From: Pseudomonadota bacterium
GTDB taxonomy: Bacteria; Pseudomonadota; Alphaproteobacteria; UBA2136; UBA6156
Assembly (NCBI GenBank): GCA_016125035.1
Contig: WGMN01000001.1
Span: 258,427-322,426 of the forward strand
Length of the DNA stretch: 64,000 bases
Direction of reading: 5' to 3'
The translations under genes and the position numbers were made by a program. Shown here one piece after another: positions 4,212 to 34,064 of this stretch (the stretch's first letter is position 1; each line of letters begins with the position of its first letter). The notes beneath the pieces are model-generated. The model did not search any database and was not told the DNA's origin. It was given only the letters and a program-made list of their open reading frames with translations.

Positions 4212-4238
4212 TTAGCACTTACTTGACTTGAGTGCTAA
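4212..4238 (+). promoter_or_regulatory. CIRCE operator (HrcA binding site)
   Basis: TTAGCACTT-N9-GAGTGCTAA, a near-perfect match to the CIRCE inverted repeat, lies directly 5' of hrcA. Confidence 0.85.
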
Positions 4239-4257
4239 TGCGCCCTATTTTGGCGCC

Positions 4258-5331
4258 ATGGACAGCAAAACACCCCATACCATCACCGAGGCCAAACCGG
4301 CCGAGAAACTGAACACCCGCGCGGCCCAGGTGCTGGCGGATGTGGTGGAGAGCTACGGGCAATCCGGTGAGCCGGTGGGCAGCCGCGCGCTGGTGGAAAG
4401 CGGCAAATACCAGCTGAGCGGGGCGAGCATAAGGAACGTGATGCAGGACCTGGAGGGCATGGGCCTGCTGACCCACCCCCACACCAGCGCCGGGCGCATG
4501 CCCACCGAGCAGGGCTACCGCTATTACGCCCAGCACCTGGTGGAGGCCGAAGAGCCTGATGCGGCGGTGAAGAAGGCGTTGGAGGAGCAGATACACATTA
4601 ACAAGAGCTCCACCCAGCTTTCTCGCGATGTGACCAGCACCCTCTCTGCCCTGACCAACTGCGCCGCGCTGGTAACCACCCCCAAGAATGACAACGACCC
4701 GTTGGAAAACATGGAATTTGTACGTCTGACCGGCGACAAAGTGCTGGTGGTGATGGTGACCAAGAGCGGCGAGATTGAAAACCGCGTGATCGAGGTGCCG
4801 GCTTTTATCGGCGCAGAGGATTTGCAAAAGGCGGCCAAGAACTTGAAGCCGATGGTGATGGGGCACACCCTGGACCAGGCGCGGACGGCGATGATCGCCG
4901 GGTTGGCCGAGCAAAAAGGCCAGGTGAACGCCATGCTGGACCAGATGATGGCCGCCGCCCATGAGTGGGGACAGCCGGTGACCGCAGATGGCGCGATGGT
5001 GGTGGCAGGCAGCACGAATTTGTTCCAGTACCCCGAGTTGGTGCGCGACAGGTTGCAGAGCCTGGTGAAGCTGTTTGAGGAAAAGCGCTTGCTGATGGCG
5101 TTGGTGGAAGAAGTGCGCGGCAGCAATGGAGTGAAGATATTTGTGGGGCATGACGTGCCGGTGGTGGGCGCGGAAGACGTGAGCATTGTGGCCGCGCCTT
5201 ATGGCCATGCAGGGAAGAAGCTGATTGGCAGTTTGGGGGTTATCGGCCCGATGAGAATGAACTATAAGCGCACGTTGGGGGTGATTGATTACACCGGCAA
5301 GTTGCTGAACCGCGTGTTGGCAGAGAAGTGA
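4258..5331 (+). CDS. hrcA: heat-inducible transcription repressor HrcA
   Basis: The family-typical N-terminal winged HTH and the C-terminal region are present. The start is placed at 4258 (MDSKTPH) because the ORF-track start at 4228 lies inside CIRCE. Confidence 0.88.
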   Translation: MDSKTPHTITEAKPAEKLNTRAAQVLADVVESYGQSGEPVGSRALVESGKYQLSGASIRNVMQDLEGMGLLTHPHTSAGRMPTEQGYRYYAQHLVEAEEPDAAVKKALEEQIHINKSSTQLSRDVTSTLSALTNCAALVTTPKNDNDPLENMEFVRLTGDKVLVVMVTKSGEIENRVIEVPAFIGAEDLQKAAKNLKPMVMGHTLDQARTAMIAGLAEQKGQVNAMLDQMMAAAHEWGQPVTADGAMVVAGSTNLFQYPELVRDRLQSLVKLFEEKRLLMALVEEVRGSNGVKIFVGHDVPVVGAEDVSIVAAPYGHAGKKLIGSLGVIGPMRMNYKRTLGVIDYTGKLLNRVLAEK

Positions 5332-6539: not shown

Positions 6540-6994
6540 AGGACCGTTTGACCATTGTGGAGGCTTGCACCGCGGATGAGCGGGAGGCTTATTTTGGGTT
6601 GCGCCACCAGGTGTTTGTGGAAGAGCAAAATGTGCCCGAGGAGATTGAGCGCGACAGTTTTGACGAGTTGCCTGAAACCAGGCATCTGTTGGGGTATGTG
6701 GACGGCAAGCCCGCCGCCACCGTGCGGGTGACCTACCCCCAGCCGGGCAAGGCCAAGATTGGCCGCCTGGCGGTGCTGCCGGATGCGCGTGGCAGCGGCT
6801 GTGCGCGGGCGTTGCTGGAAACGGTGATGAAGGACTTCCCCGAGCAGGGCATTACCCTGGCGGTGATGAGCGCGCAGAGCTATTTGCAGCGTTTTTATGA
6901 GAGTGTGGGCTTTGTGGTGGTGGGAGAGCCCTACAAGGAAGCCGGCCTGGACCATGTGTGGATGGAAATGCCGGTGAAGGAGATGGCGGCGTGA
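6536..6994 (+). CDS. GNAT family N-acetyltransferase
   Basis: An acetyl-CoA-binding motif (RGSGCARALLE) and a GNAT-typical length. The start overlaps the CYTH stop. Confidence 0.75.
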   Translation: MKDRLTIVEACTADEREAYFGLRHQVFVEEQNVPEEIERDSFDELPETRHLLGYVDGKPAATVRVTYPQPGKAKIGRLAVLPDARGSGCARALLETVMKDFPEQGITLAVMSAQSYLQRFYESVGFVVVGEPYKEAGLDHVWMEMPVKEMAA

Positions 6995-7053
6995 CTTTCA
7001 CCGCGAGATTTTATCTTTAACAACCCTAGTATTGAGACAAAGGAGAGACGACG

Positions 7054-8967
<1,914 letters not shown>

Positions 8968-8985
8968 GGTGCCCGGAACCTGAAA

Positions 8986-9010
8986 GGGGGGCCATGGTGC
9001 CCCTTTTTTG
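8986..9010 (+). terminator. rho-independent terminator after dnaK
   Basis: GC-rich hairpin GGGGGC-catggt-GCCCC followed by TTTTTT. Confidence 0.6.
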
Positions 9011-9169
9011 TTGCCAAAAAGCTGCAATTTGTATGCAGAAAAGGGTTAAAAGCGGGGTTTTTGCTATGAAAAACTTACTTACATTGTGCTAAATAGCTGG
9101 AAAGAAAGGTGCAGGAGAGGCTTGCGCCTGCACAACCAACGACCTAAATAACCGCGGAAAGCCAAGACG

Positions 9170-27428: not shown

Positions 27429-29330
27429 TTAGCCCGGACCGCCGCCGGCGTTGGTATAAATGCAGCCGGATTTGGTGGAGTAGATTTTTTCCACGCGTTT
27501 GGCAAATTCTCCGCGGACCTTGGCAAGTTCATTGAGACGGGCAATTTGCTCGTCAACCGCCGGGATCATTACTTCCTTCACAACACGGGCGAGACGCTCG
27601 CGCAGTTCGGGGCTATCGATGAGGTCTGGGGTGGTGGCAGCACCATCCGCAGCAGTGGTGGCAGCAGGCTGTTTGATGCCTGCGCCTTTTTCGGTAAGCA
27701 GGCGGGCATAGACCTCTTTGAGTTTGAGGCTGAGGTAGCGATAGGTATCGCGCGTGGCGGTGAGAGCGACATCGTTGCTGCTTATATCGTAAAAAGCTGC
27801 GGTATCGGTGGCGTTACACTGGGTTTGCAGATCGGTTACGATATAGGGATCAAAGATGGGGATGGTTTGGTTAGCCGTGCAACCCAGCGCGACAAGAGCC
27901 AGGGAAGGCAGTGCGGCTTTGTCAGTAGCATAGGCCGCGGGTAGTTTAAGTTGAGCGTCAATAATGGTTTGTAGATCGCTCACACCTATATCGTTCAGAT
28001 TTACGGCAACGGATTGTGACGGCACGATTTGGTGATTACCGGTGTCATCTGCAGCTTGGGCGGGGTCTCGGCCGTTAATAATTTGCACGTAGGTCTGCAA
28101 GGCATACTTCATGTTGTTGGAGCTGCAGTTGAGGTAGTCCTTTTGGAATTCGGCAGTCAAAGGGTCTGAAATAGCTATATTAGAGGAATAGCTGAGACCA
28201 CGACTGAGAGTTAATTTTGTTTTGTCGGCGGCCAGAGACAAAGTCGCGGGGTCGATGTTGGCGGCTTTTATTTTTTGGAAGACCTGGTCTATCCAATCCG
28301 GGACAATTTTGTTGTTCATGATGAAGCGCATGAGATCGAAGAACACCGAGGTTTGCAGGGGGGCTTCCTTGACACCGTAATCGGTGCTGGGGGTGCAGCC
28401 GCCGCTAAGATCGGAGCCGTTGCAAAGGCGTACTTGCGGCACCAACAGCAGCGGCCAGCACGCTGTGGTTGAGTTGCTGGTATTGGTCGCGTCGGCAGAT
28501 GAGGTGTTTGTGGCTGCAGGGCATAGCAGGGGGCGGATGGATTCGTTCACGTTCTCTGTGCCACGGATGACATCGGCGAAGGCTTTACCGCTCTCTTTGC
28601 GTTTCTTCAAAGCAGCGTCATCGCTGGCGTATTGCATGGAGCAGACCTCCCACGCCTGGGCGTACGCCTGGGCTTTTACGATATCATCCTTGTTGGTGAC
28701 CTGCGGGGCGGACTGAATGGCATTGGTTGAGGTGTTTGTATTGTTGGCGGCGTTGGCTGTTTGCGCGGCATCATAAGCTTTGGTGACGATGTCCATGCGG
28801 ATGGGGACCTGCTCTTTGACGCAGGCGCTCATGTACTGGTTTTTGGCGTCCTGCTTGAGGGAATCGAGCTTACAGGCTTGCTGGAATTGTTGGTAACGGG
28901 CGTTGCCGTAAGAGTTTAGAGTATCGAACAGCGCGGCGGTTTGCGGCAGGCTGTAGTTGTAGGTGAGGATTTGTTTGGCCAGCTCCGAGTTAACGTCTTT
29001 TTTAAACTTATCGAAGACTTCCGGCATGTTAAACAGGGCGCTGGTGTAATCACCCTGGCCGATACCACCGCAGCCCTTGAGGGCATCCACGTCATCATCG
29101 GTAGTGGCGACGGGGGTGGTGGGGAAGGTGGTGTTTTGGGTGTTATCGGTGCCGAGGTTGAGCATTCCGGAGGGGCCGCCAAAGGCGCTTCCAGACTCGG
29201 AGAAGTAGTATTGGGGGGCGGTTGTGGTGGTGGACGCCGTGGGGCTTGGGTCATCGGCAAATGCGGGTACCGCAATGGCTGAAAACAGCCATAGGCCGAG
29301 CACGGCGAGGGCGGCGGGGCGGAAACTCAT
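27429..29330 (-). CDS. secreted Cys-containing protein with C-terminal coiled coil, TraH-like (tentative)
   Basis: Signal peptide (MSFRPAALAVLGLWLFSAIAVPAFA), an N/T-rich body and a C-terminal coiled coil. The region has markedly lower GC. Confidence 0.35.
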   Translation of the reverse strand: MSFRPAALAVLGLWLFSAIAVPAFADDPSPTASTTTTAPQYYFSESGSAFGGPSGMLNLGTDNTQNTTFPTTPVATTDDDVDALKGCGGIGQGDYTSALFNMPEVFDKFKKDVNSELAKQILTYNYSLPQTAALFDTLNSYGNARYQQFQQACKLDSLKQDAKNQYMSACVKEQVPIRMDIVTKAYDAAQTANAANNTNTSTNAIQSAPQVTNKDDIVKAQAYAQAWEVCSMQYASDDAALKKRKESGKAFADVIRGTENVNESIRPLLCPAATNTSSADATNTSNSTTACWPLLLVPQVRLCNGSDLSGGCTPSTDYGVKEAPLQTSVFFDLMRFIMNNKIVPDWIDQVFQKIKAANIDPATLSLAADKTKLTLSRGLSYSSNIAISDPLTAEFQKDYLNCSSNNMKYALQTYVQIINGRDPAQAADDTGNHQIVPSQSVAVNLNDIGVSDLQTIIDAQLKLPAAYATDKAALPSLALVALGCTANQTIPIFDPYIVTDLQTQCNATDTAAFYDISSNDVALTATRDTYRYLSLKLKEVYARLLTEKGAGIKQPAATTAADGAATTPDLIDSPELRERLARVVKEVMIPAVDEQIARLNELAKVRGEFAKRVEKIYSTKSGCIYTNAGGGPG

Positions 29331-29370
29331 ACCTTTAAGTTTGGGGCGGGAGGCTTTGTGTTGCAAGGGG

Positions 29371-31551
29371 TTAGCCGCCCTTTGCCGGGTGTTTGACCAG
29401 GGTGACGCGCAGGGCGTTTTGCGCGGTGGCGATTTTTTCAAAAATATGTTCGAGTTCAAGTGTTTGGCGGTGGGAAAGATTCATGCTGCGGGCTTGTTGC
29501 ACGGCTTTTTCCAGGTGGTGGGCCACCCTGGCCAGGCGCTCTTGTAAACCGTAGAAGGCCTTGATTTCCTTGAGATAACTGGCCACGGTGGCTTCGTCGG
29601 CCTGGGACATCAGGGCGTGGGCTTCCAGCTCGCGTTTGAGGCTTTCCACCGTGCTTCCAAGCTCTTGAATTTGCGCGGTTTGTTGAGCGATGGTGGCCTC
29701 GCGCTGCTTGCCCCAGGTCTCGGCGTCGCGCAGGGCGGTCTCCAGGGCCTCTTGACGTTTTTTCAAGGCGTTAGCCACCGCCGGGGCGAGGCTGTTCGCT
29801 GCCGATGGCGGCAATTCGCTGCGGCCGGGCGGCAAGGAAGCGGCAGAAAGCGGCAAAACGCTGCCGGAAGCGGCGGCGGGGGCGAGGTGCTTGATCTGCC
29901 CTGCTGCCGCAGCCTCGTAAAGTTCGGTGAACTGGGGGCCCCTGCCCCATGAGGCGCCGTGCTGGCGGATGAAATCGGCCATCTCCTCCTGCGCGCTCTG
30001 GGGCAGGTCGACCGCGGTGGAAGCGTTGGTGATCTGCACCAGGCCGTCCTCGAACAGTTGGCGCAGGCGCGGCGAGGCTTTTTCCCTGACCTTGGCGTAG
30101 ACGATGACGTTGGGGCGCGAGGTGCCCAGTGCCTCGGCTATTTTGCCCTGCGACAAGCCCAGCGTGAGCAGCGCGCCGATGGCGAAGTAGAGCTCTATTT
30201 TATCCAGCGGGCGGGTGCGGGCATTGAGGCAGATGCGCAGGGTTTGCGCGGCCTGCACCGACGGCGTGGCGCGCACCTGGCACAACAGCCTGTCCACCCC
30301 CTTGGCGCGGGCGGCGTGGATGCGGCGCTCGCCGTCGATCACCGCGCCTTCCGGCGTGATGAGCAGCGGCGGCCAGTGCTCGGCGTCGCCGTCGGTGAGT
30401 TTGCGGATGTGGGGCAGATTTTCCGGCGCGAGGTTGGAAGGAGGCCTGAACTCCAGCCCCAGCGAGGTAAGCACGGAGATGGGCCGCCATTCCACGCCTT
30501 GCAGGGCGAAGGTTTCGTCTTCCTCTGGCGTGAGGCTTGCCGGCAGGGCTTGGCCGGAATCGGCATCTTCCGCCGCCGCGGGTGGTTGCTGTTTGGCGGA
30601 GAGGGCCAGGCCATCGCGCAGCTCCGGGTACTCGGTGGCGAAGGCGGCGGCGATTTGCGCGGCGCGGCCCGGCACGGCATTGGACATGGCCTCTTCCAAG
30701 AGGCGTTGGGCGCGCTTCTCGTTCAGCCCCAGTTTGCGGAAATCGTAGACCACGCTTTTTAAGTCGGCATCCAGCAGGCGTTGGACGTAGAAGGCGTCCA
30801 TCAGCTCATTAAGGATCTGGCTGGCGCGGGAGTCGGTCACCCCGAAGTGGTAGGCGATCTCTTCAAAGCTGGCGACGCCGCCGACCTTGACGTGCATCAG
30901 CGCGGCGCGGCGCTTTTCGTCCCGTTCCGCGGCAATGAGGTCATTGAGTTTGCGCTCGATGAAGCTATCCTGGGCGATCTTCATCAGCAGGTTGGTTTGG
31001 CGCGAGCGCTGGGCGGAGGAGGCCTCGGAACGCAGATGCTCTTGCATGGTGCTTTCCTGGTCGAGGTGTTGCACCAGCAGCGGCGGGTTCTCGCGAAACT
31101 GGGCGCGGTCGGCGTCGGACATATCATTCATGTGCGCCTGGCGGGCCTGGTATTCGGGGTCGCGGTTGCGCATCTCCAGCGCCTTGCCTTCCAACCGGCT
31201 GCCGAAGAAAGTGTTGAACTGCACGGTGACCACCTCGCCGCCGGCCTTGGTGTAGACCGGGTTGAAATCGCGCAGGCAGGTGAGCAGCACTTCGTAGGCC
31301 TCTTGCAGCAGGTCATCGCCATCTAAGTGATAATGCCGCGCCAGGCTGAACGCCGCCTGGCGGCGGCCATGGATATACTTGACCGCGGATTGGCGCGCCA
31401 GTTGGTAACCTGCGTCTTCTGTTTTAAGGGCCTCGGCACGCACGGAGGTGGGGCTGCTTTGCCGCGCCTTGGCCGCCCCTTTGGCGGCGGCGGCTTTTTT
31501 GGGCGATGCGGCGGCGGCCTTTTTGGCCGCGGGCTTAGTGGTTTTGGGCAT
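29371..31551 (-). CDS. fusion protein: Lys/Ala-rich tail + ECF-sigma-like regions 2 and 4 + ParB-like N-domain/HTH + C-terminal coiled coil
   Basis: The N-terminal tail MPKTTKPAAKKAAAASPKKAAAAKGAAKA is histone-H1-like. DLLQEAYEVLLTCLRDFNP is sigma region 2-like, and SFEEIAYHFGVTDSRASQILNEL is region 4-like. VIDGERRIHAARAKG is ParB box-like, and GKIAEALGTSRPNVI is an HTH. Confidence 0.6.
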   Translation of the reverse strand: MPKTTKPAAKKAAAASPKKAAAAKGAAKARQSSPTSVRAEALKTEDAGYQLARQSAVKYIHGRRQAAFSLARHYHLDGDDLLQEAYEVLLTCLRDFNPVYTKAGGEVVTVQFNTFFGSRLEGKALEMRNRDPEYQARQAHMNDMSDADRAQFRENPPLLVQHLDQESTMQEHLRSEASSAQRSRQTNLLMKIAQDSFIERKLNDLIAAERDEKRRAALMHVKVGGVASFEEIAYHFGVTDSRASQILNELMDAFYVQRLLDADLKSVVYDFRKLGLNEKRAQRLLEEAMSNAVPGRAAQIAAAFATEYPELRDGLALSAKQQPPAAAEDADSGQALPASLTPEEDETFALQGVEWRPISVLTSLGLEFRPPSNLAPENLPHIRKLTDGDAEHWPPLLITPEGAVIDGERRIHAARAKGVDRLLCQVRATPSVQAAQTLRICLNARTRPLDKIELYFAIGALLTLGLSQGKIAEALGTSRPNVIVYAKVREKASPRLRQLFEDGLVQITNASTAVDLPQSAQEEMADFIRQHGASWGRGPQFTELYEAAAAGQIKHLAPAAASGSVLPLSAASLPPGRSELPPSAANSLAPAVANALKKRQEALETALRDAETWGKQREATIAQQTAQIQELGSTVESLKRELEAHALMSQADEATVASYLKEIKAFYGLQERLARVAHHLEKAVQQARSMNLSHRQTLELEHIFEKIATAQNALRVTLVKHPAKGG

Positions 31552-31730
31552 ACGTGCCTCTTTTTAATTGTTGGCCCGAGCATGCCACATTGTGGCCGGG
31601 GCGTCAGGGGCGCAAGCGAGGGCGGGGGTGAGTGCTGACAGGGGGTGTGGCAGTTGCGCTACCGCCCCCACAGGCAAGCCGCCCTCCCCTGCGCCTGTGG
31701 TGTGGAGAGGGCGGCCTGTTGCCGGAGCTT

Positions 31731-32177
31731 TTACCAGCGCCGCCAGTAAAGGTAGGTTTGCGGCGGTTCGTATTCGTAATAGACCGGCGGCGGGCGGTAG
31801 ACCACCACCGGCGCCACCGCGACCGGATAGGGGACCGGCACGTAGACAGTGGCCGGCGGTACCACAGGTGGCGGGGGCACGACCGGGGCGGGCTGAGGCA
31901 CCGGCATGACCGAGGTGCTGTCCTGCACCGTTTTGGTGGTAGTGCTTGTGGTGGAGCCCACCGGGGCAGCAGGCGCCGGCGTGGTGACCGTGGTGCTGCT
32001 CTCGGTATGGCTGATGACCACGTTGCCGCCGAGGAAGCAGCCCTTGGTGGCGAGCTCGGCCAGTTTGGCCGGCGTGAGGACGGTTGGCCAATCGCACACC
32101 GGCTGGGCGGCGGAAGCAATGGACAGGCTGGCGACGAGGCAGGCGGCGGGAAGCGTGCCGCGGAGAAGTGGGCGCAT
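31731..32177 (-). CDS. small secreted Pro/Val-rich protein
   Basis: Signal peptide followed by a PxxP-rich low-complexity region. Confidence 0.4.
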   Translation of the reverse strand: MRPLLRGTLPAACLVASLSIASAAQPVCDWPTVLTPAKLAELATKGCFLGGNVVISHTESSTTVTTPAPAAPVGSTTSTTTKTVQDSTSVMPVPQPAPVVPPPPVVPPATVYVPVPYPVAVAPVVVYRPPPVYYEYEPPQTYLYWRRW

Positions 32178-32294: not shown

Positions 32295-34064
32295 TTAGGC
32301 CGCGCCTTTTTTGGCCTGGTTTTTGAGGGTTTGCTGGAGCTCGCCCAGGAAAGGACTGGGTTGCGGCGTGTGCCAGGTGAGCAGCAGGTTGGCGCGGGTG
32401 CGGCTGATGGCCAGGTAGAACATGCGGCGCTCGTGGTCGGGGTTAGGGCCCAGCAGGGTTTGCGGCGGCCACGGCCAGGAGGCGGCGCCGGCGTGGGGCA
32501 AGATGACGGTGGTGAACTCCATATTACGCACCTCGCGCACCGGGGCGACGGTGATGGGGGACTCCATATTCGGCAGGGTTTCCTGCATGACGCGGGGCAG
32601 CACCTCGGTGAGTTTGCCCGACAGGCTGAGCAGGGTATCGGTGGCCAGCAACGCCTCCGGGTGCTCGGCCGCCGGGAGGGTGGTGAGGAGCTCGGCCACC
32701 AGGGACTTGAAGACGTCTCGCGGCGGCATGGCCTTGGCCTGCAACAGCTGCCCGGCACCGGCAAAAGCACGGCGCACCCGCTGCACCGCGGTTTGCAGCG
32801 GCGGGGTGAGCCCTTCCAACGGCGGCAGCGGGCAACCGGCCGCCAGCCAGCCCTCGGCCCTAAGGCCCTGGCTGAACAGCCCCGTTACCACCCCCGCCGG
32901 CAGGCCGAAACCGATGAGCACCAGCTGCAAATGCGCGGGCGTGGCCTGGCCGAGCATGACGTAGAGCATGGCCAGCACCAGCTGGGCGGTGGGATTCTCC
33001 CATATAAGCCGGGCGTAGCTGGCCGGGTTCATGCCTGCCTTGCGCAGCACCTGGGTGATGAGCGAAGCGGTAAAATCATCCCGCGTGAGGATGCCGATGG
33101 CCAAGCGCGAGCCCTTGGCCTGCGCCAGCAGTTGCGAGCAGGTGCTGGCAAGGAAGGCGTGCTCGGCCACCGCGGAGGGGAAGGCCTCGGCGCGGAGGTC
33201 TCCCGGGTTGGGGTTGGCGGTGCCGTCGCCCTTGGTGGCGCGGTGCTTGAGCTGGCGGGCGATTTTGTTAATGGCGGGGGCCAGGGTTTTGGGCAGGCGG
33301 AAGCTGACCTCCAGATTAAAGCGTGTGATGTCTGGCCAGGCTTCCACCGCCTCGATGGCTTGCAGGCCCATGGCGCCGTCTTGCACGAAGGCGGTGATGT
33401 CGTCATCTGCCGCCATGGTGAGGGCCACCCCGCTGCCCATGTGCATTTGCAGCCAGATGAGCTGGAGCTCGGTGGCGTCTTGCAGGTTATCCAGCAGAAT
33501 GTGCGACACCGGCAGCGGCGGGACCTTGCCCTCCCGCATGCCCAGCACGTGGCGGCGGATGATGTCGTGCCTATCGAGCAGGCCGAGTTCTTCCAGCTTG
33601 TGCTGGTAGGCGCTGACGAAGGCGTAGTGGCGGTCGGTCTCTGGCAGCTTTTTGGCGTGGCTTTTGGCCGCGCGGATGATGTGCTCGGCCTCGGACAGTG
33701 TGCCGGGGAACGCTTGCTGGGCCACCAGTGTGCGCAGGATCTCCCTCACCTGGTTGTTGCTGACGAAGGAGAAGGGCTCGCCCGCTGCTTGCAGTTGCGC
33801 GGCGGCGAGGTCTCGCAGCGTGCCGGCGCGCAGGCCGCCGGTGGCGATGTGTGCGTTGAATTGCGGGTAGTGACCGTGGGCGTAGCTTTTGATGTACTCC
33901 AGGCTGCGGAAGGCGAAGGTGCACAGCGCCGCCTTTTGGCCGGAAGTGATGAGGCGGTGGGCTTTTTCCAGCAGCAGCAGCGTTTTGCCCGAGCCGGGTG
34001 GGCCGACCACCAGGGCGCTCTCATGGTGTTTGAGGACTGCTTGCTGGCTGCGCGACCACTCCAC
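32295..34064 (-). CDS. UvrD/Rep-like superfamily I helicase domain protein
   Basis: Walker A VVGPPGSGKT and the UvrD_C-like motif FYLAISRTRANLLLTW. Motif II reads DNLQD rather than DEFQD. Confidence 0.65.
   Translation of the reverse strand: MEWSRSQQAVLKHHESALVVGPPGSGKTLLLLEKAHRLITSGQKAALCTFAFRSLEYIKSYAHGHYPQFNAHIATGGLRAGTLRDLAAAQLQAAGEPFSFVSNNQVREILRTLVAQQAFPGTLSEAEHIIRAAKSHAKKLPETDRHYAFVSAYQHKLEELGLLDRHDIIRRHVLGMREGKVPPLPVSHILLDNLQDATELQLIWLQMHMGSGVALTMAADDDITAFVQDGAMGLQAIEAVEAWPDITRFNLEVSFRLPKTLAPAINKIARQLKHRATKGDGTANPNPGDLRAEAFPSAVAEHAFLASTCSQLLAQAKGSRLAIGILTRDDFTASLITQVLRKAGMNPASYARLIWENPTAQLVLAMLYVMLGQATPAHLQLVLIGFGLPAGVVTGLFSQGLRAEGWLAAGCPLPPLEGLTPPLQTAVQRVRRAFAGAGQLLQAKAMPPRDVFKSLVAELLTTLPAAEHPEALLATDTLLSLSGKLTEVLPRVMQETLPNMESPITVAPVREVRNMEFTTVILPHAGAASWPWPPQTLLGPNPDHERRMFYLAISRTRANLLLTWHTPQPSPFLGELQQTLKNQAKKGAA

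What the first reader, a model, noticed from the sequence alone, without database searches (positions are those of the whole stretch)
29371..31551. Single protein fusing a histone-like tail, an ECF-sigma-like module, a ParB-like module and a coiled coil
Sigma-70 region-2-like (DLLQEAYEVLL…DFNP) and region-4-like HTH (SFEEIAYHFGVTDSRASQILNEL) motifs are followed by a ParB N-domain signature (VIDGERRIHAARAKG) and a second HTH (GKIAEALGTSRPNV). A C-terminal coiled coil of about 150 aa then follows. A sigma factor fused to a ParB-type domain (which in ParB proteins binds CTP and DNA) inside a secretion locus is unusual. It may be a dedicated regulator or partition/anchor protein for the system.
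Basis: partly seen in the sequence, partly recalled or inferred. Interest (0 to 1): 0.7.

Follow-up and report, generated by a model that had tools for sequence, protein, structure and literature searches.

The report
Sigma-like module fused to ParB clamp
A conserved 726-residue protein in a conjugation-type secretion and pilus gene cluster of uncultured alphaproteobacteria joins a sigma-factor-like module to a complete ParB-type DNA-clamp protein, and most likely regulates that cluster's transcription.

Summary
ORF 29371-31551 (-) encodes 726 aa with these parts:
- a basic disordered tail;
- a ParB N-domain plus HTH (Foldseek E 4e-6 to Noc/ParB/KorB; Box II G407..R410 invariant);
- a linker and a ~130-aa helical C-terminal domain.

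The whole architecture is conserved in more than 100 MAG proteins (42-70% identity, genome GC 29-64%). The gene always lies between a UvrD-like helicase and T4SS genes, on chromosomes of an uncultured alphaproteobacterial lineage. It has no match in plasmid, phage or viral collections. The sigma-like module has no detectable standalone relatives.

Two new cis-elements were found. An inverted repeat TGTCAG-N16-29-CTGACA overlaps the gene's own -35 in 18 loci. A promoter class CTTGAAA-N13-15-CCCCATnnT recurs within the cluster.

No ParA gene is present, so a partition role is unlikely. The best reading is a cluster-dedicated transcription regulator, related in concept to the ParB-like regulators KorB, BisD, VirB and HerB, but with a covalently attached sigma-like module. 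Whether it binds RNA polymerase or a nucleotide is untested. I rate it a new variant of a known kind.

The parts
31453..31551 (-). aa 1-33: basic Lys/Ala/Pro-rich, predicted disordered tail ('histone H1-like' low-complexity region)
   Evidence: pLDDT below 50 for residues 1-33. Across 42 homologues the tail is 7-71 aa long, about 28% K+R, with few acidic residues.
31159..31452 (-). aa 34-131: sigma-70-family sigma2-like domain (region 2.2-like DLLQEAYEVLLTCLRDF; region 2.3/2.4-like FNTFFGSRLEGKALEMRN)
30940..31158 (-). aa 132-204: long conserved connector between the sigma2-like and sigma4-like domains (DPEYQARQA, PPLLVQHLD motifs); no known counterpart
   Evidence: Invariant residues E133, Y134, A136, R137, F152, P156-V160, H162 and D164. 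Helical but lower confidence, pLDDT 43-85.
30769..30939 (-). aa 205-261: sigma4-like HTH (region 4.2-like; recognition helix GVTDSRASQ)
   Evidence: Pfam Sigma70_r4 E 0.012 at aa 227-249, plus MarR_2 and HTH_37. TIGR02937 extends to aa 251. G237-Q245 are invariant in 42/42 although overall identity falls to 42%.
30589..30768 (-). aa 262-321: helical extension after the sigma4-like domain (conserved D270, K279, R280, R283)
   Evidence: AF2 helices 264-274, 278-291, 294-303 and 311-321 with pLDDT around 90. Invariant columns.
30202..30528 (-). aa 342-450: ParB N-terminal (ParB/Srx, 'ParB-CTPase') domain, with Box II D406-G407-x-R409-R410
   Evidence: Profile against PDB: Spo0J 1vz0 E 2e-5. Foldseek: Noc 7nfu, ParB 6sdk/6t1f/1vz0, KorB 8qa9. 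G407 and R410 are 42/42, R409 39/42, N443 41/42, R445 40/42. The position aligned to the Box III glutamate is aliphatic (Leu/Val/Ile/Ala/Met among the residues listed), with no Glu listed.
29884..30201 (-). aa 451-556: ParB-type HTH DNA-binding domain (GLSQ.KIA..LGTSR.NV.VYAKV)
   Evidence: HTH_Crp_2 in 34/42 members, KorB domain in 6/42. Foldseek to the KorB DNA-binding domain 1r71. Q468, R479, N481, V484, Y485 and K487 are invariant.
29785..29883 (-). aa 557-589: disordered, variable linker
   Evidence: pLDDT below 50 for residues 561-588. This stretch is length-variable in the alignment.
29374..29784 (-). aa 590-726: long alpha-helical C-terminal domain, probably a coiled-coil dimerisation module
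   Evidence: AF2 helices 590-650, 653-689 and 694-720. Weak SMC/Rad50/HlyD coiled-coil type matches.
31602..31640 (-). Conserved inverted repeat TGTCAG-N27-CTGACG upstream of the gene. The proximal half-site (31602-31607) sits at the -35 position, followed by N17 and CATGCT (31579-31584).
   Evidence: TGTCAG-N16-18 or N27-29-CTGAC[AG] occurs once each in the window and 17 related loci (18 observed against 2.9 expected in 620 kb), always just upstream of the target gene. Sequence contexts; PWM.
29324..29369 (-). 'Type-B' promoter CCCTTGCAA-N14-CCCCAAACT directly after the target's stop codon, 7 nt before the ATG (29330) of the next gene (a secreted 633-aa protein)
   Evidence: Conserved across high-GC and low-GC clades. 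PWM score 24-25 bits. The same motif class recurs at other orthologous positions of the cluster in relatives: 38 sense, 5 antisense, about 2 expected.
32295..34064 (-). UvrD-like helicase gene, the conserved upstream neighbour
   Evidence: Pfam UvrD-helicase and UvrD_C. It is adjacent to the target in 43%-identity homologues and in most loci.

Best explanation
The protein is a dedicated transcription regulator of the T4SS/pilus cluster. It is built as a ParB-type dimeric DNA-binding clamp (ParB N-domain, HTH, flexible linker, helical dimerisation domain) with a sigma-70-family sigma2/sigma4 module attached to its N-terminus.

Proposed mechanism:
1. The dimer binds the conserved inverted repeat TGTCAG...CTGACA that overlaps the -35 of its own promoter. 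This gives autoregulation and possibly a loading site.
2. The sigma-like module engages RNA polymerase and/or the -35-like TGA(C/A)A elements.
3. The protein thereby controls the conserved CTTGAAA-N13-15-CCCCATnnT promoters found in front of T4SS operons, including the operon directly downstream of its own gene.
4. The ParB half keeps it on the cluster DNA, and may slide if it binds a nucleotide.

Shown here: the domain folds, the conservation of the whole architecture, the synteny, the operator, and the promoter class.

Inferred: which domain binds which site, RNA polymerase binding, nucleotide binding, and whether the effect is activation or repression.
For: Both modules are real and under strong constraint. 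The region 2.2-like motif and the sigma4 recognition helix are invariant in 42/42 sequences at 42-70% overall identity, and so are the ParB HTH and Box II G..R.

The fusion is obligatory. An exhaustive phmmer search of the N-module against 1.84 billion representatives found only 15 proteins, all from this family.

The gene is a fixed component of the cluster: SLT - UvrD-like helicase - target - ... - TrbI - TraC.

The inverted repeat at its own -35 appears in 18 loci against 2.9 expected, with two spacer classes about one helical turn apart, which fits a dimer binding one face of the DNA. A TGTCAG box also abuts the -35 of the next gene's promoter in 5 loci.

The type-B promoter class recurs on the sense strand (38 hits, against 5 antisense and about 2 expected). 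Besides the 21 training sites, there are 10 independent loci with a site upstream of a small SD-preceded gene, and 3 with a site upstream of SLT.

Neither promoter in the window passes a simple sigma-70 consensus scan.

No ParA gene was found.

Precedents for ParB-like proteins regulating transcription on conjugative or virulence elements: BisD (PMC12409273), KorB (PDB 8qa8/8qa9; discussed), VirB and HerB (PMC13370423).

Against: The type-B motif matches, from my memory, the sigma32/RpoH consensus. The host heat-shock sigma could therefore serve these promoters without the fused module.

In the window itself only one type-B site passes threshold, and the gene's own promoter type does not recur.

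The half-sites are 16-29 nt apart, unlike contiguous parS, which would hinder parS-type clamp closure.

The Box III glutamate is absent and Box I is altered, so nucleotide hydrolysis, and perhaps binding, is uncertain.

No experiment links the protein to any of these sites.
Confidence: 0.55

Rival explanations
1. KorB-like repressor or silencer only. The ParB half binds the operator and represses its own gene and neighbouring promoters. The sigma-like module no longer touches RNA polymerase core and acts as an extra DNA-binding or protein-interaction domain. The cluster promoters are read by the host RpoH or housekeeping sigma.
For: The operator overlaps the -35, a classic repressor position. 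The type-B motif resembles the sigma32 consensus (own knowledge). The sigma similarity is sub-threshold. KorB is a structural match.
Against: The region 2.2-like motif (the part of a sigma factor that contacts the polymerase clamp helices, from own knowledge) is invariant in 42/42, as are the aromatic residues of the region 2.3-like stretch. That is hard to explain for a decayed domain. dnaK in the same window shows no type-B promoter.
Confidence: 0.25
2. DNA-processing or relaxosome-type accessory factor for DNA transfer. Together with the adjacent UvrD-like helicase and the TraD-type coupling protein, it marks and melts a transfer origin. The sigma2-like domain would hold single-stranded DNA and the ParB half would clamp the DNA.
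For: The gene pairs with a UvrD-like helicase in most loci. No recognisable relaxase was found among the cluster ORFs. A coupling protein is present. The inverted repeat lies between the helicase gene and the target gene.
Against: The repeat's proximal arm sits at a fixed N17 distance from a -10-like element. That is promoter geometry, not a nick site. The sigma4-like HTH and type-B promoters point to transcription. No nuclease or HUH domain was detected in the protein.
Confidence: 0.12
3. Ordinary partition ParB of a mobile element, with accreted domains.
For: Public annotation pipelines name several homologues 'ParB/RepB/Spo0J family partition protein'. The fold matches ParB.
Against: There is no ParA gene in 64 kb. 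Canonical parS is not found beyond chance. There is no homologue in 72,556 plasmids, 50,697 phage records or IMG/VR. The locus is chromosomal and appears vertically inherited.
Confidence: 0.03

Closest known systems
BisD of ICEclc (Pseudomonas), a ParB-like CTP clamp that co-activates T4SS promoters with BisC (PMC12409273)
   Same: It has a ParB N-domain with GxxR, an HTH, a long disordered linker and an all-helical C-terminal dimerisation/activation domain. It is encoded inside a conjugative T4SS element. It acts on many promoters of that element, loads at specific sites near its own region, and has no ParA-type partition role.
   Different: BisD has no sigma-like module and needs a separate FlhC-like partner (BisC) to reach RNA polymerase. 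It retains the Box III ENxxR glutamate. Here the glutamate is missing, a sigma2/sigma4 module is fused N-terminally, and no BisC-like gene was seen. No sequence homology beyond the ParB fold was tested.
KorB of plasmid RK2 (with KorA), a ParB-family CTP-dependent sliding clamp and global repressor
   Same: The ParB N-domain and HTH fold match (Foldseek 8qa9 E 3.5e-4; 1r71 DNA-binding domain). The Pfam KorB domain matches 6/42 members. Its operators sit at or near the -35 of transfer and maintenance promoters (own knowledge).
   Different: KorB has a ParA partner (IncC) and contiguous palindromic operators. It represses rather than carrying a sigma-like module. The target is closer to chromosomal ParB/Noc than to KorB by Foldseek.
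Phage ParB-CTPase-Sigma70 fusion noted in the survey by Kaljevic et al. 2025 (PMC12704722; uvig_297896_22)
   Same: A ParB-CTPase fold and a Sigma70 domain in one polypeptide. This shows the combination exists elsewhere in nature.
   Different: That protein is from a gut phage, has Box II GEHRVRA (an Srx-like GxHR type) and bound ATP. The present family has DGERR and is chromosomal and T4SS-linked. It has no relatives in viral, phage or plasmid collections. It also carries the full clamp layout (HTH, linker, dimerisation domain).
ECF (group 4) sigma factors with C-terminal extensions (ECF41, ECF42 and others; PMC7826278)
   Same: A sigma2 and sigma4 core followed by a fused C-terminal domain, and no neighbouring anti-sigma factor gene was recognised.
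   Different: No ECF group with a ParB extension is described (0 mentions of ParB). Here the sigma2-sigma4 connector is about 75 aa and conserved, the score is below the family cutoff, and the associated promoters are not ECF-like.
VirB (Shigella) and HerB/YfjB (F-like plasmids), ParB-like transcription reprogrammers
   Same: ParB-like CTP-binding DNA clamps repurposed for gene regulation on mobile or virulence elements.
   Different: Neither has a sigma-like module. They act by anti-silencing or host reprogramming. No homology to them was tested here.

Membership tests
Sigma-70 family / ECF sigma factor | sigma2 domain fold (regions 2.1-2.4) | tested here: met
Sigma-70 family / ECF sigma factor | sigma4 HTH domain (region 4.2) | tested here: met
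Sigma-70 family / ECF sigma factor | Score above the curated family threshold | tested here: not met
   35.3 bits against a cutoff of 42.9 for TIGR02937. Pfam r2 and r4 are below their gathering scores. The N-module profile finds no solved sigma factor by sequence.
Sigma-70 family / ECF sigma factor | Short sigma2-sigma4 linker and no region 3 (the ECF hallmark) | tested here: inconclusive
   The connector is about 75 aa, helical and carries invariant motifs. It is neither a typical ECF linker nor a recognisable region 3.
Sigma-70 family / ECF sigma factor | Binds RNA polymerase core and directs initiation at cognate promoters | not testable with these tools
   Only indirect evidence: an invariant region 2.2-like motif and conserved promoter classes nearby.
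ParB/Spo0J/KorB-type nucleotide-gated DNA clamp | ParB N-domain (ParB/Srx fold) followed by an HTH DNA-binding domain | tested here: met
   Foldseek to Noc, ParB and KorB, E 4e-6 to 5e-4 over about 200 columns. Profile to Spo0J E 2e-5. parB_part matches 29/42 members.
ParB/Spo0J/KorB-type nucleotide-gated DNA clamp | Box II GxxR phosphate-binding motif | tested here: met
   G407 and R410 are invariant and R409 is 39/42.
ParB/Spo0J/KorB-type nucleotide-gated DNA clamp | Box III ENxxR and Box I motifs | tested here: inconclusive
   N443 is 41/42 and R445 is 40/42, but the arginine is offset by one residue, and the position aligned to the glutamate is aliphatic (Leu/Val/Ile/Ala/Met listed, no Glu). 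The Box I equivalent is F368-(R/H)-P. The survey paper's section heading says that neither sequence analysis nor AlphaFold3 reliably predicts nucleotide specificity.
ParB/Spo0J/KorB-type nucleotide-gated DNA clamp | C-terminal dimerisation domain after a flexible linker | tested here: inconclusive
   A disordered linker (aa 561-588) and a 130-aa helical domain are predicted. Dimerisation was not modelled, and there is no homology to the ParB C-terminal domain.
ParB/Spo0J/KorB-type nucleotide-gated DNA clamp | Cognate palindromic loading site (parS-like) | tested here: inconclusive
   Canonical parS is not found beyond chance. A family-specific inverted repeat exists, but its half-sites are 16-29 nt apart, except for a contiguous palindrome in L025. 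What binds it is unknown.
ParABS partition system | Adjacent ParA ATPase gene and N-terminal ParA-binding motif | tested here: not met
   No ParA/CbiA-type hit among 50 ORFs scanned in the window. The N-terminus is occupied by the basic tail and the sigma-like module.
BisD-type ICE activator | FlhC-like BisC partner and BisDact domain | not tested
No FlhC-like Pfam hit was seen in the cluster.

The most novel reading that the evidence does not exclude
A 'sliding sigma factor'. A nucleotide-gated ParB clamp loads at the inverted repeat beside its own gene. It then carries a covalently tethered sigma module along the ~45-kb T4SS/pilus cluster, delivering RNA polymerase to the CTTGAAA-N13-15-CCCCATnnT promoters in cis. 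This would confine a sigma factor's regulon to one chromosomal neighbourhood.
Probability: 0.2. Interest if true: 0.85.

Novelty: new variant of a known kind. Interest (0 to 1): 0.62.

Why it matters
ParB-like nucleotide switches have recently been shown to regulate transcription on mobile elements (KorB, BisD, VirB, HerB). In each case, contact with RNA polymerase is indirect or goes through a partner protein. In this family, a full clamp-type ParB is fused in every member to a strongly conserved sigma2/sigma4 module. That makes a direct question testable: can a DNA-sliding clamp deliver promoter recognition or RNA polymerase itself?

The family also comes with a defined operator and a defined promoter class. 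Both can go straight into EMSA, ChIP and in vitro transcription experiments.

Finally, the protein is a core gene of an uncharacterised T4SS/pilus cluster that is conserved across an uncultured alphaproteobacterial lineage.

Tried and rejected
A single-sequence template is too weak for this.
- An N-module-only profile (A3) against all PDB sequences gave 0 hits even at E<=10.
- A homologue search with the ParB + coiled-coil half returned only 5 fragments of the same family, so the closest outside ParB subfamily could not be identified by sequence.
- General repeat finding over the cluster gave only GC-rich noise.
- Canonical parS (TGTTNCACGTGAAACA) gave 2 weak sites, within chance.
- A PWM for the gene's own promoter found no second copy in the window. 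The type-B PWM found only one convincing site in the window itself.
- The box CACACCCC looked strand-biased (5 against 0), but that count matches the number expected from base composition by my own estimate.
- NCBIfam on 10 unknown cluster ORFs found no relaxase or other family.
- The dnaK upstream region shows no clear type-B promoter, so the RpoH question stays open.
- Plasmid, phage and viral collections gave no match.
Full report
OBSERVATION. The ORF at 29371-31551 (minus strand) starts with ATG and encodes 726 aa.

On the single sequence, Pfam gives only sub-threshold HTH matches at aa 223-259 and 461-482, including Sigma70_r4 at E 0.012. NCBIfam gives TIGR02937, a general sigma-70-family model, at E 8e-9 over aa 69-251. 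That is 35.3 bits against a cutoff of 42.9. It also gives parB_part at E 8e-4 over aa 404-482. phmmer against PDB finds B. subtilis Spo0J 6sdk at E 1.5e-4 over aa 403-517.

FAMILY. More than 120 full-length proteins of 700-790 aa share 42-70% identity with the target and have the same architecture. All come from uncultured (alpha)proteobacterial MAGs. GTDB representative genomes contain 32 loci.

In a 42-sequence alignment (A1), TIGR02937 matches 39/42 members (best E 1.5e-12) and parB_part matches 29/42 (best E 1.5e-10). The family profile hits Spo0J/ParB structures at E 2e-5.

An exhaustive phmmer search of the N-module against 1.84 billion representatives returns only 15 proteins, all from this family. 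So the sigma-like module is known only as part of this fusion. There is no relative in IMG/VR, 72,556 plasmids or 50,697 phage records.

STRUCTURE. The full-length AlphaFold2 model has pLDDT 80.9. Disordered segments are aa 1-33, 183-194, 323-336 and 561-588. The folded parts are a helical N-module (34-321), an alpha/beta ParB region (342-556) and three long C-terminal helices (590-720).

RESIDUE CONSERVATION. All of the following are invariant in 42/42:
- the region 2.2-like stretch (Q83, E84, E87, L90, C92, R94, D95, P98);
- the region 2.3/2.4-like stretch (F112, T114, F115, G117, R119, E126, R128, N129);
- the sigma4 recognition helix G237-Q245 (GVTDSRASQ).

The 75-aa connector between the two sigma-like domains carries invariant motifs (PPLLVQHLD) with no known counterpart.

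In the ParB half, Box II is conserved: D406, G407 and R410 are invariant and R409 is 39/42. N443 (41/42) and R445 (40/42) resemble Box III. However, the position aligned to the Box III glutamate is aliphatic (Leu/Val/Ile/Ala/Met among the residues listed, no Glu). The Box I equivalent is F-(R/H)-P. The ParB HTH residues Q468, R479, N481, V484, Y485 and K487 are invariant.

Nucleotide binding is therefore plausible. Hydrolysis is doubtful, and specificity cannot be predicted; the ParB survey's own section heading says that neither sequence analysis nor AlphaFold3 gives reliable predictions.

CONTEXT. In the window, dnaK, dnaJ, endonuclease III and sugar genes lie at 7-17 kb, and RNase PH lies at 63 kb. 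Between them is a ~44-kb cluster that is almost entirely on the minus strand. It encodes TraC/VirB4-like, TrbI/VirB10, SLT, TraE-like, prepilin, T2SSF, T2SSE, secretin, a TraD-type coupling protein and a TraF-like thioredoxin.

No ParA was detected, no relaxase, and no integrase among the ORFs of 150 aa or more that were scanned.

In homologues at 43% identity the order SLT - UvrD-like helicase - target - three large unknown genes - TrbI - TraC is kept. The helicase is the immediate upstream neighbour in most loci.

GC content of the loci ranges from 29 to 64%. DnaK of the lineage is 80-89% identical, against about 75% to cultured Hyphomicrobiales, and several DnaK hits have the same longest-contig length as target homologues. 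I infer a chromosomal, vertically inherited system in an uncultured alphaproteobacterial lineage, not a recently mobile element.

CIS-ELEMENTS (new).

(A) An inverted repeat lies just upstream of the gene: TGTCAG-N16-18 or N27-29-CTGAC(A/G). It occurs once each in the window and 17 loci, 18 in total against 2.9 expected in 620 kb, and always at this position.
- The two spacer classes differ by about one helical turn.
- The proximal arm is followed by N17 and a (T/C)AnnnT element, so it sits at the -35 position.
- Low-GC relatives keep TT(T/C)CTGACA, and L025 has the perfect palindrome TTCCTGACATGTCAGGAA.
- In the window the repeat is at 31602-31640.

(B) Directly after the stop codon lies CCCTTG(A/C)(A/C)A-N14-CCCCA(T/A)nnT, 7-12 nt from the next gene's ATG in the high-GC clade. 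That spacing implies a leaderless or near-leaderless transcript. The motif is also conserved in the low-GC clade.

A PWM built from these sites finds 38 sense-strand hits, against 5 antisense and about 2 expected. The hits include independent sites at orthologous positions: upstream of a small SD-preceded gene 4.5-7 kb upstream in 10 loci, and upstream of SLT in 3 loci. In five loci a TGTCAG box abuts the -35 of this promoter.

The motif resembles the sigma32/RpoH consensus (from my own knowledge). dnaK in the window does not show it. Neither promoter in the window passes a simple sigma-70 consensus scan.

INTERPRETATION. The layout ParB N-domain - HTH - disordered linker - helical C-terminal domain is that of clamp-type ParB proteins. 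It is also the layout of BisD, the ICEclc regulator. BisD loads at bisS sites, spreads over about 50 kb and, together with BisC, activates 11 T4SS promoters. KorB, VirB and HerB are further ParB-like transcription regulators of mobile elements.

The present family differs in having a strongly constrained sigma2/sigma4 module fused to the N-terminus. I therefore propose a cluster-dedicated transcription regulator that autoregulates through the inverted repeat and controls the type-B promoters. The sigma-like module would provide the link to RNA polymerase that BisD obtains through BisC.

None of the following has been shown: which domain reads which element, whether the module binds RNA polymerase core, whether a nucleotide is bound, and whether the protein slides.

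RIVALS. A repressor-only reading is possible, with the type-B promoters served by RpoH. A DNA-processing role with the UvrD-like helicase is also possible. A classical partition role is very unlikely because there is no ParA, no canonical parS, and the protein is absent from plasmid collections.

NOVELTY. A 2025 survey lists ParB-CTPase-Sigma70 fusions and showed ATP binding for one of them. That protein is from a gut phage and has Box II GEHRVRA. The ECF reclassification paper does not mention ParB. I found no description of this chromosomal, T4SS-linked family with the full clamp layout. I rate it a new variant of a known kind.

Noticed in passing
window 27429-29459 (-), true start probably ATG at 29330: The mechanical ORF call starts at a TTG that overlaps the target's 3' end by 89 nt. 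The conserved promoter and a signal-peptide-like N-terminus (MSFRPAALAVLGLWLFSAIAVPAFA) indicate a start at 29330. That is only 7 nt after the -10-like element, so the mRNA would be leaderless or nearly so.
   Followed up: partly
window 6931-9027 (-): A 698-aa ORF antisense to dnaK hits Pfam PF10712 'NAD-specific glutamate dehydrogenase' at E 5e-177. It fully overlaps the genuine dnaK (7054-8967 +, HSP70 E 2e-271). It is almost certainly a spurious antisense ORF that matches a family built from such ORFs.
   Followed up: no
window 17154-60821: The ~44-kb T4SS + type IV pilus cluster has a coupling protein and a UvrD-like helicase but no recognisable relaxase, integrase or ParA. At least a dozen large ORFs match no Pfam or NCBIfam family. 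The substrate, DNA or protein, is unknown.
   Followed up: partly
window 31731-32177 (-) and 31678-31713: A 148-aa proline-rich ORF with a signal-peptide-like start sits between the helicase and the target in this genome, but not in the distant homologue loci L001/L002. It is followed by a G+C-rich hairpin (GCCGCCCTCTCC...GGGGAGGGCGGC) that could act as a terminator insulating the target's own promoter.
   Followed up: no
L003:782, L005:4511, L006:3267, L008:3070, L010:3016, L011:5457, L012:4390, L013:4549, L014:4094, L016:2986: A small gene with a strong AAAGGAGA ribosome-binding site and a hydrophobic N-terminus (MNQRTLLFS..., MKRQFL...) is preceded by the type-B promoter in 10 relatives. 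It is possibly the pilin or first gene of the T4SS operon. The equivalent site in the window did not pass the PWM threshold.
   Followed up: partly
window about 4220-4260 (+): A type-B-like promoter (CTTGACT-N14-CCCTATTTT, then ATG 7 nt downstream) scores 16.6 bits on the + strand outside the T4SS cluster, in front of an unannotated ORF (4228-5331 +). It could be chance or a member of the same regulon.
   Followed up: no
whole window: GC skew is positive on the + strand in every 2-kb bin, while nearly all cluster genes are on the minus strand. The coding strand is therefore C-rich throughout. Either the cluster lies head-on to replication or the lineage has an unusual coding-strand bias.
   Followed up: no
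L001-L034: The same cluster and the same fusion protein persist in genomes with GC content from 29% to 64%. That is an unusually wide compositional span for one syntenic system and argues for ancient vertical inheritance.
   Followed up: partly
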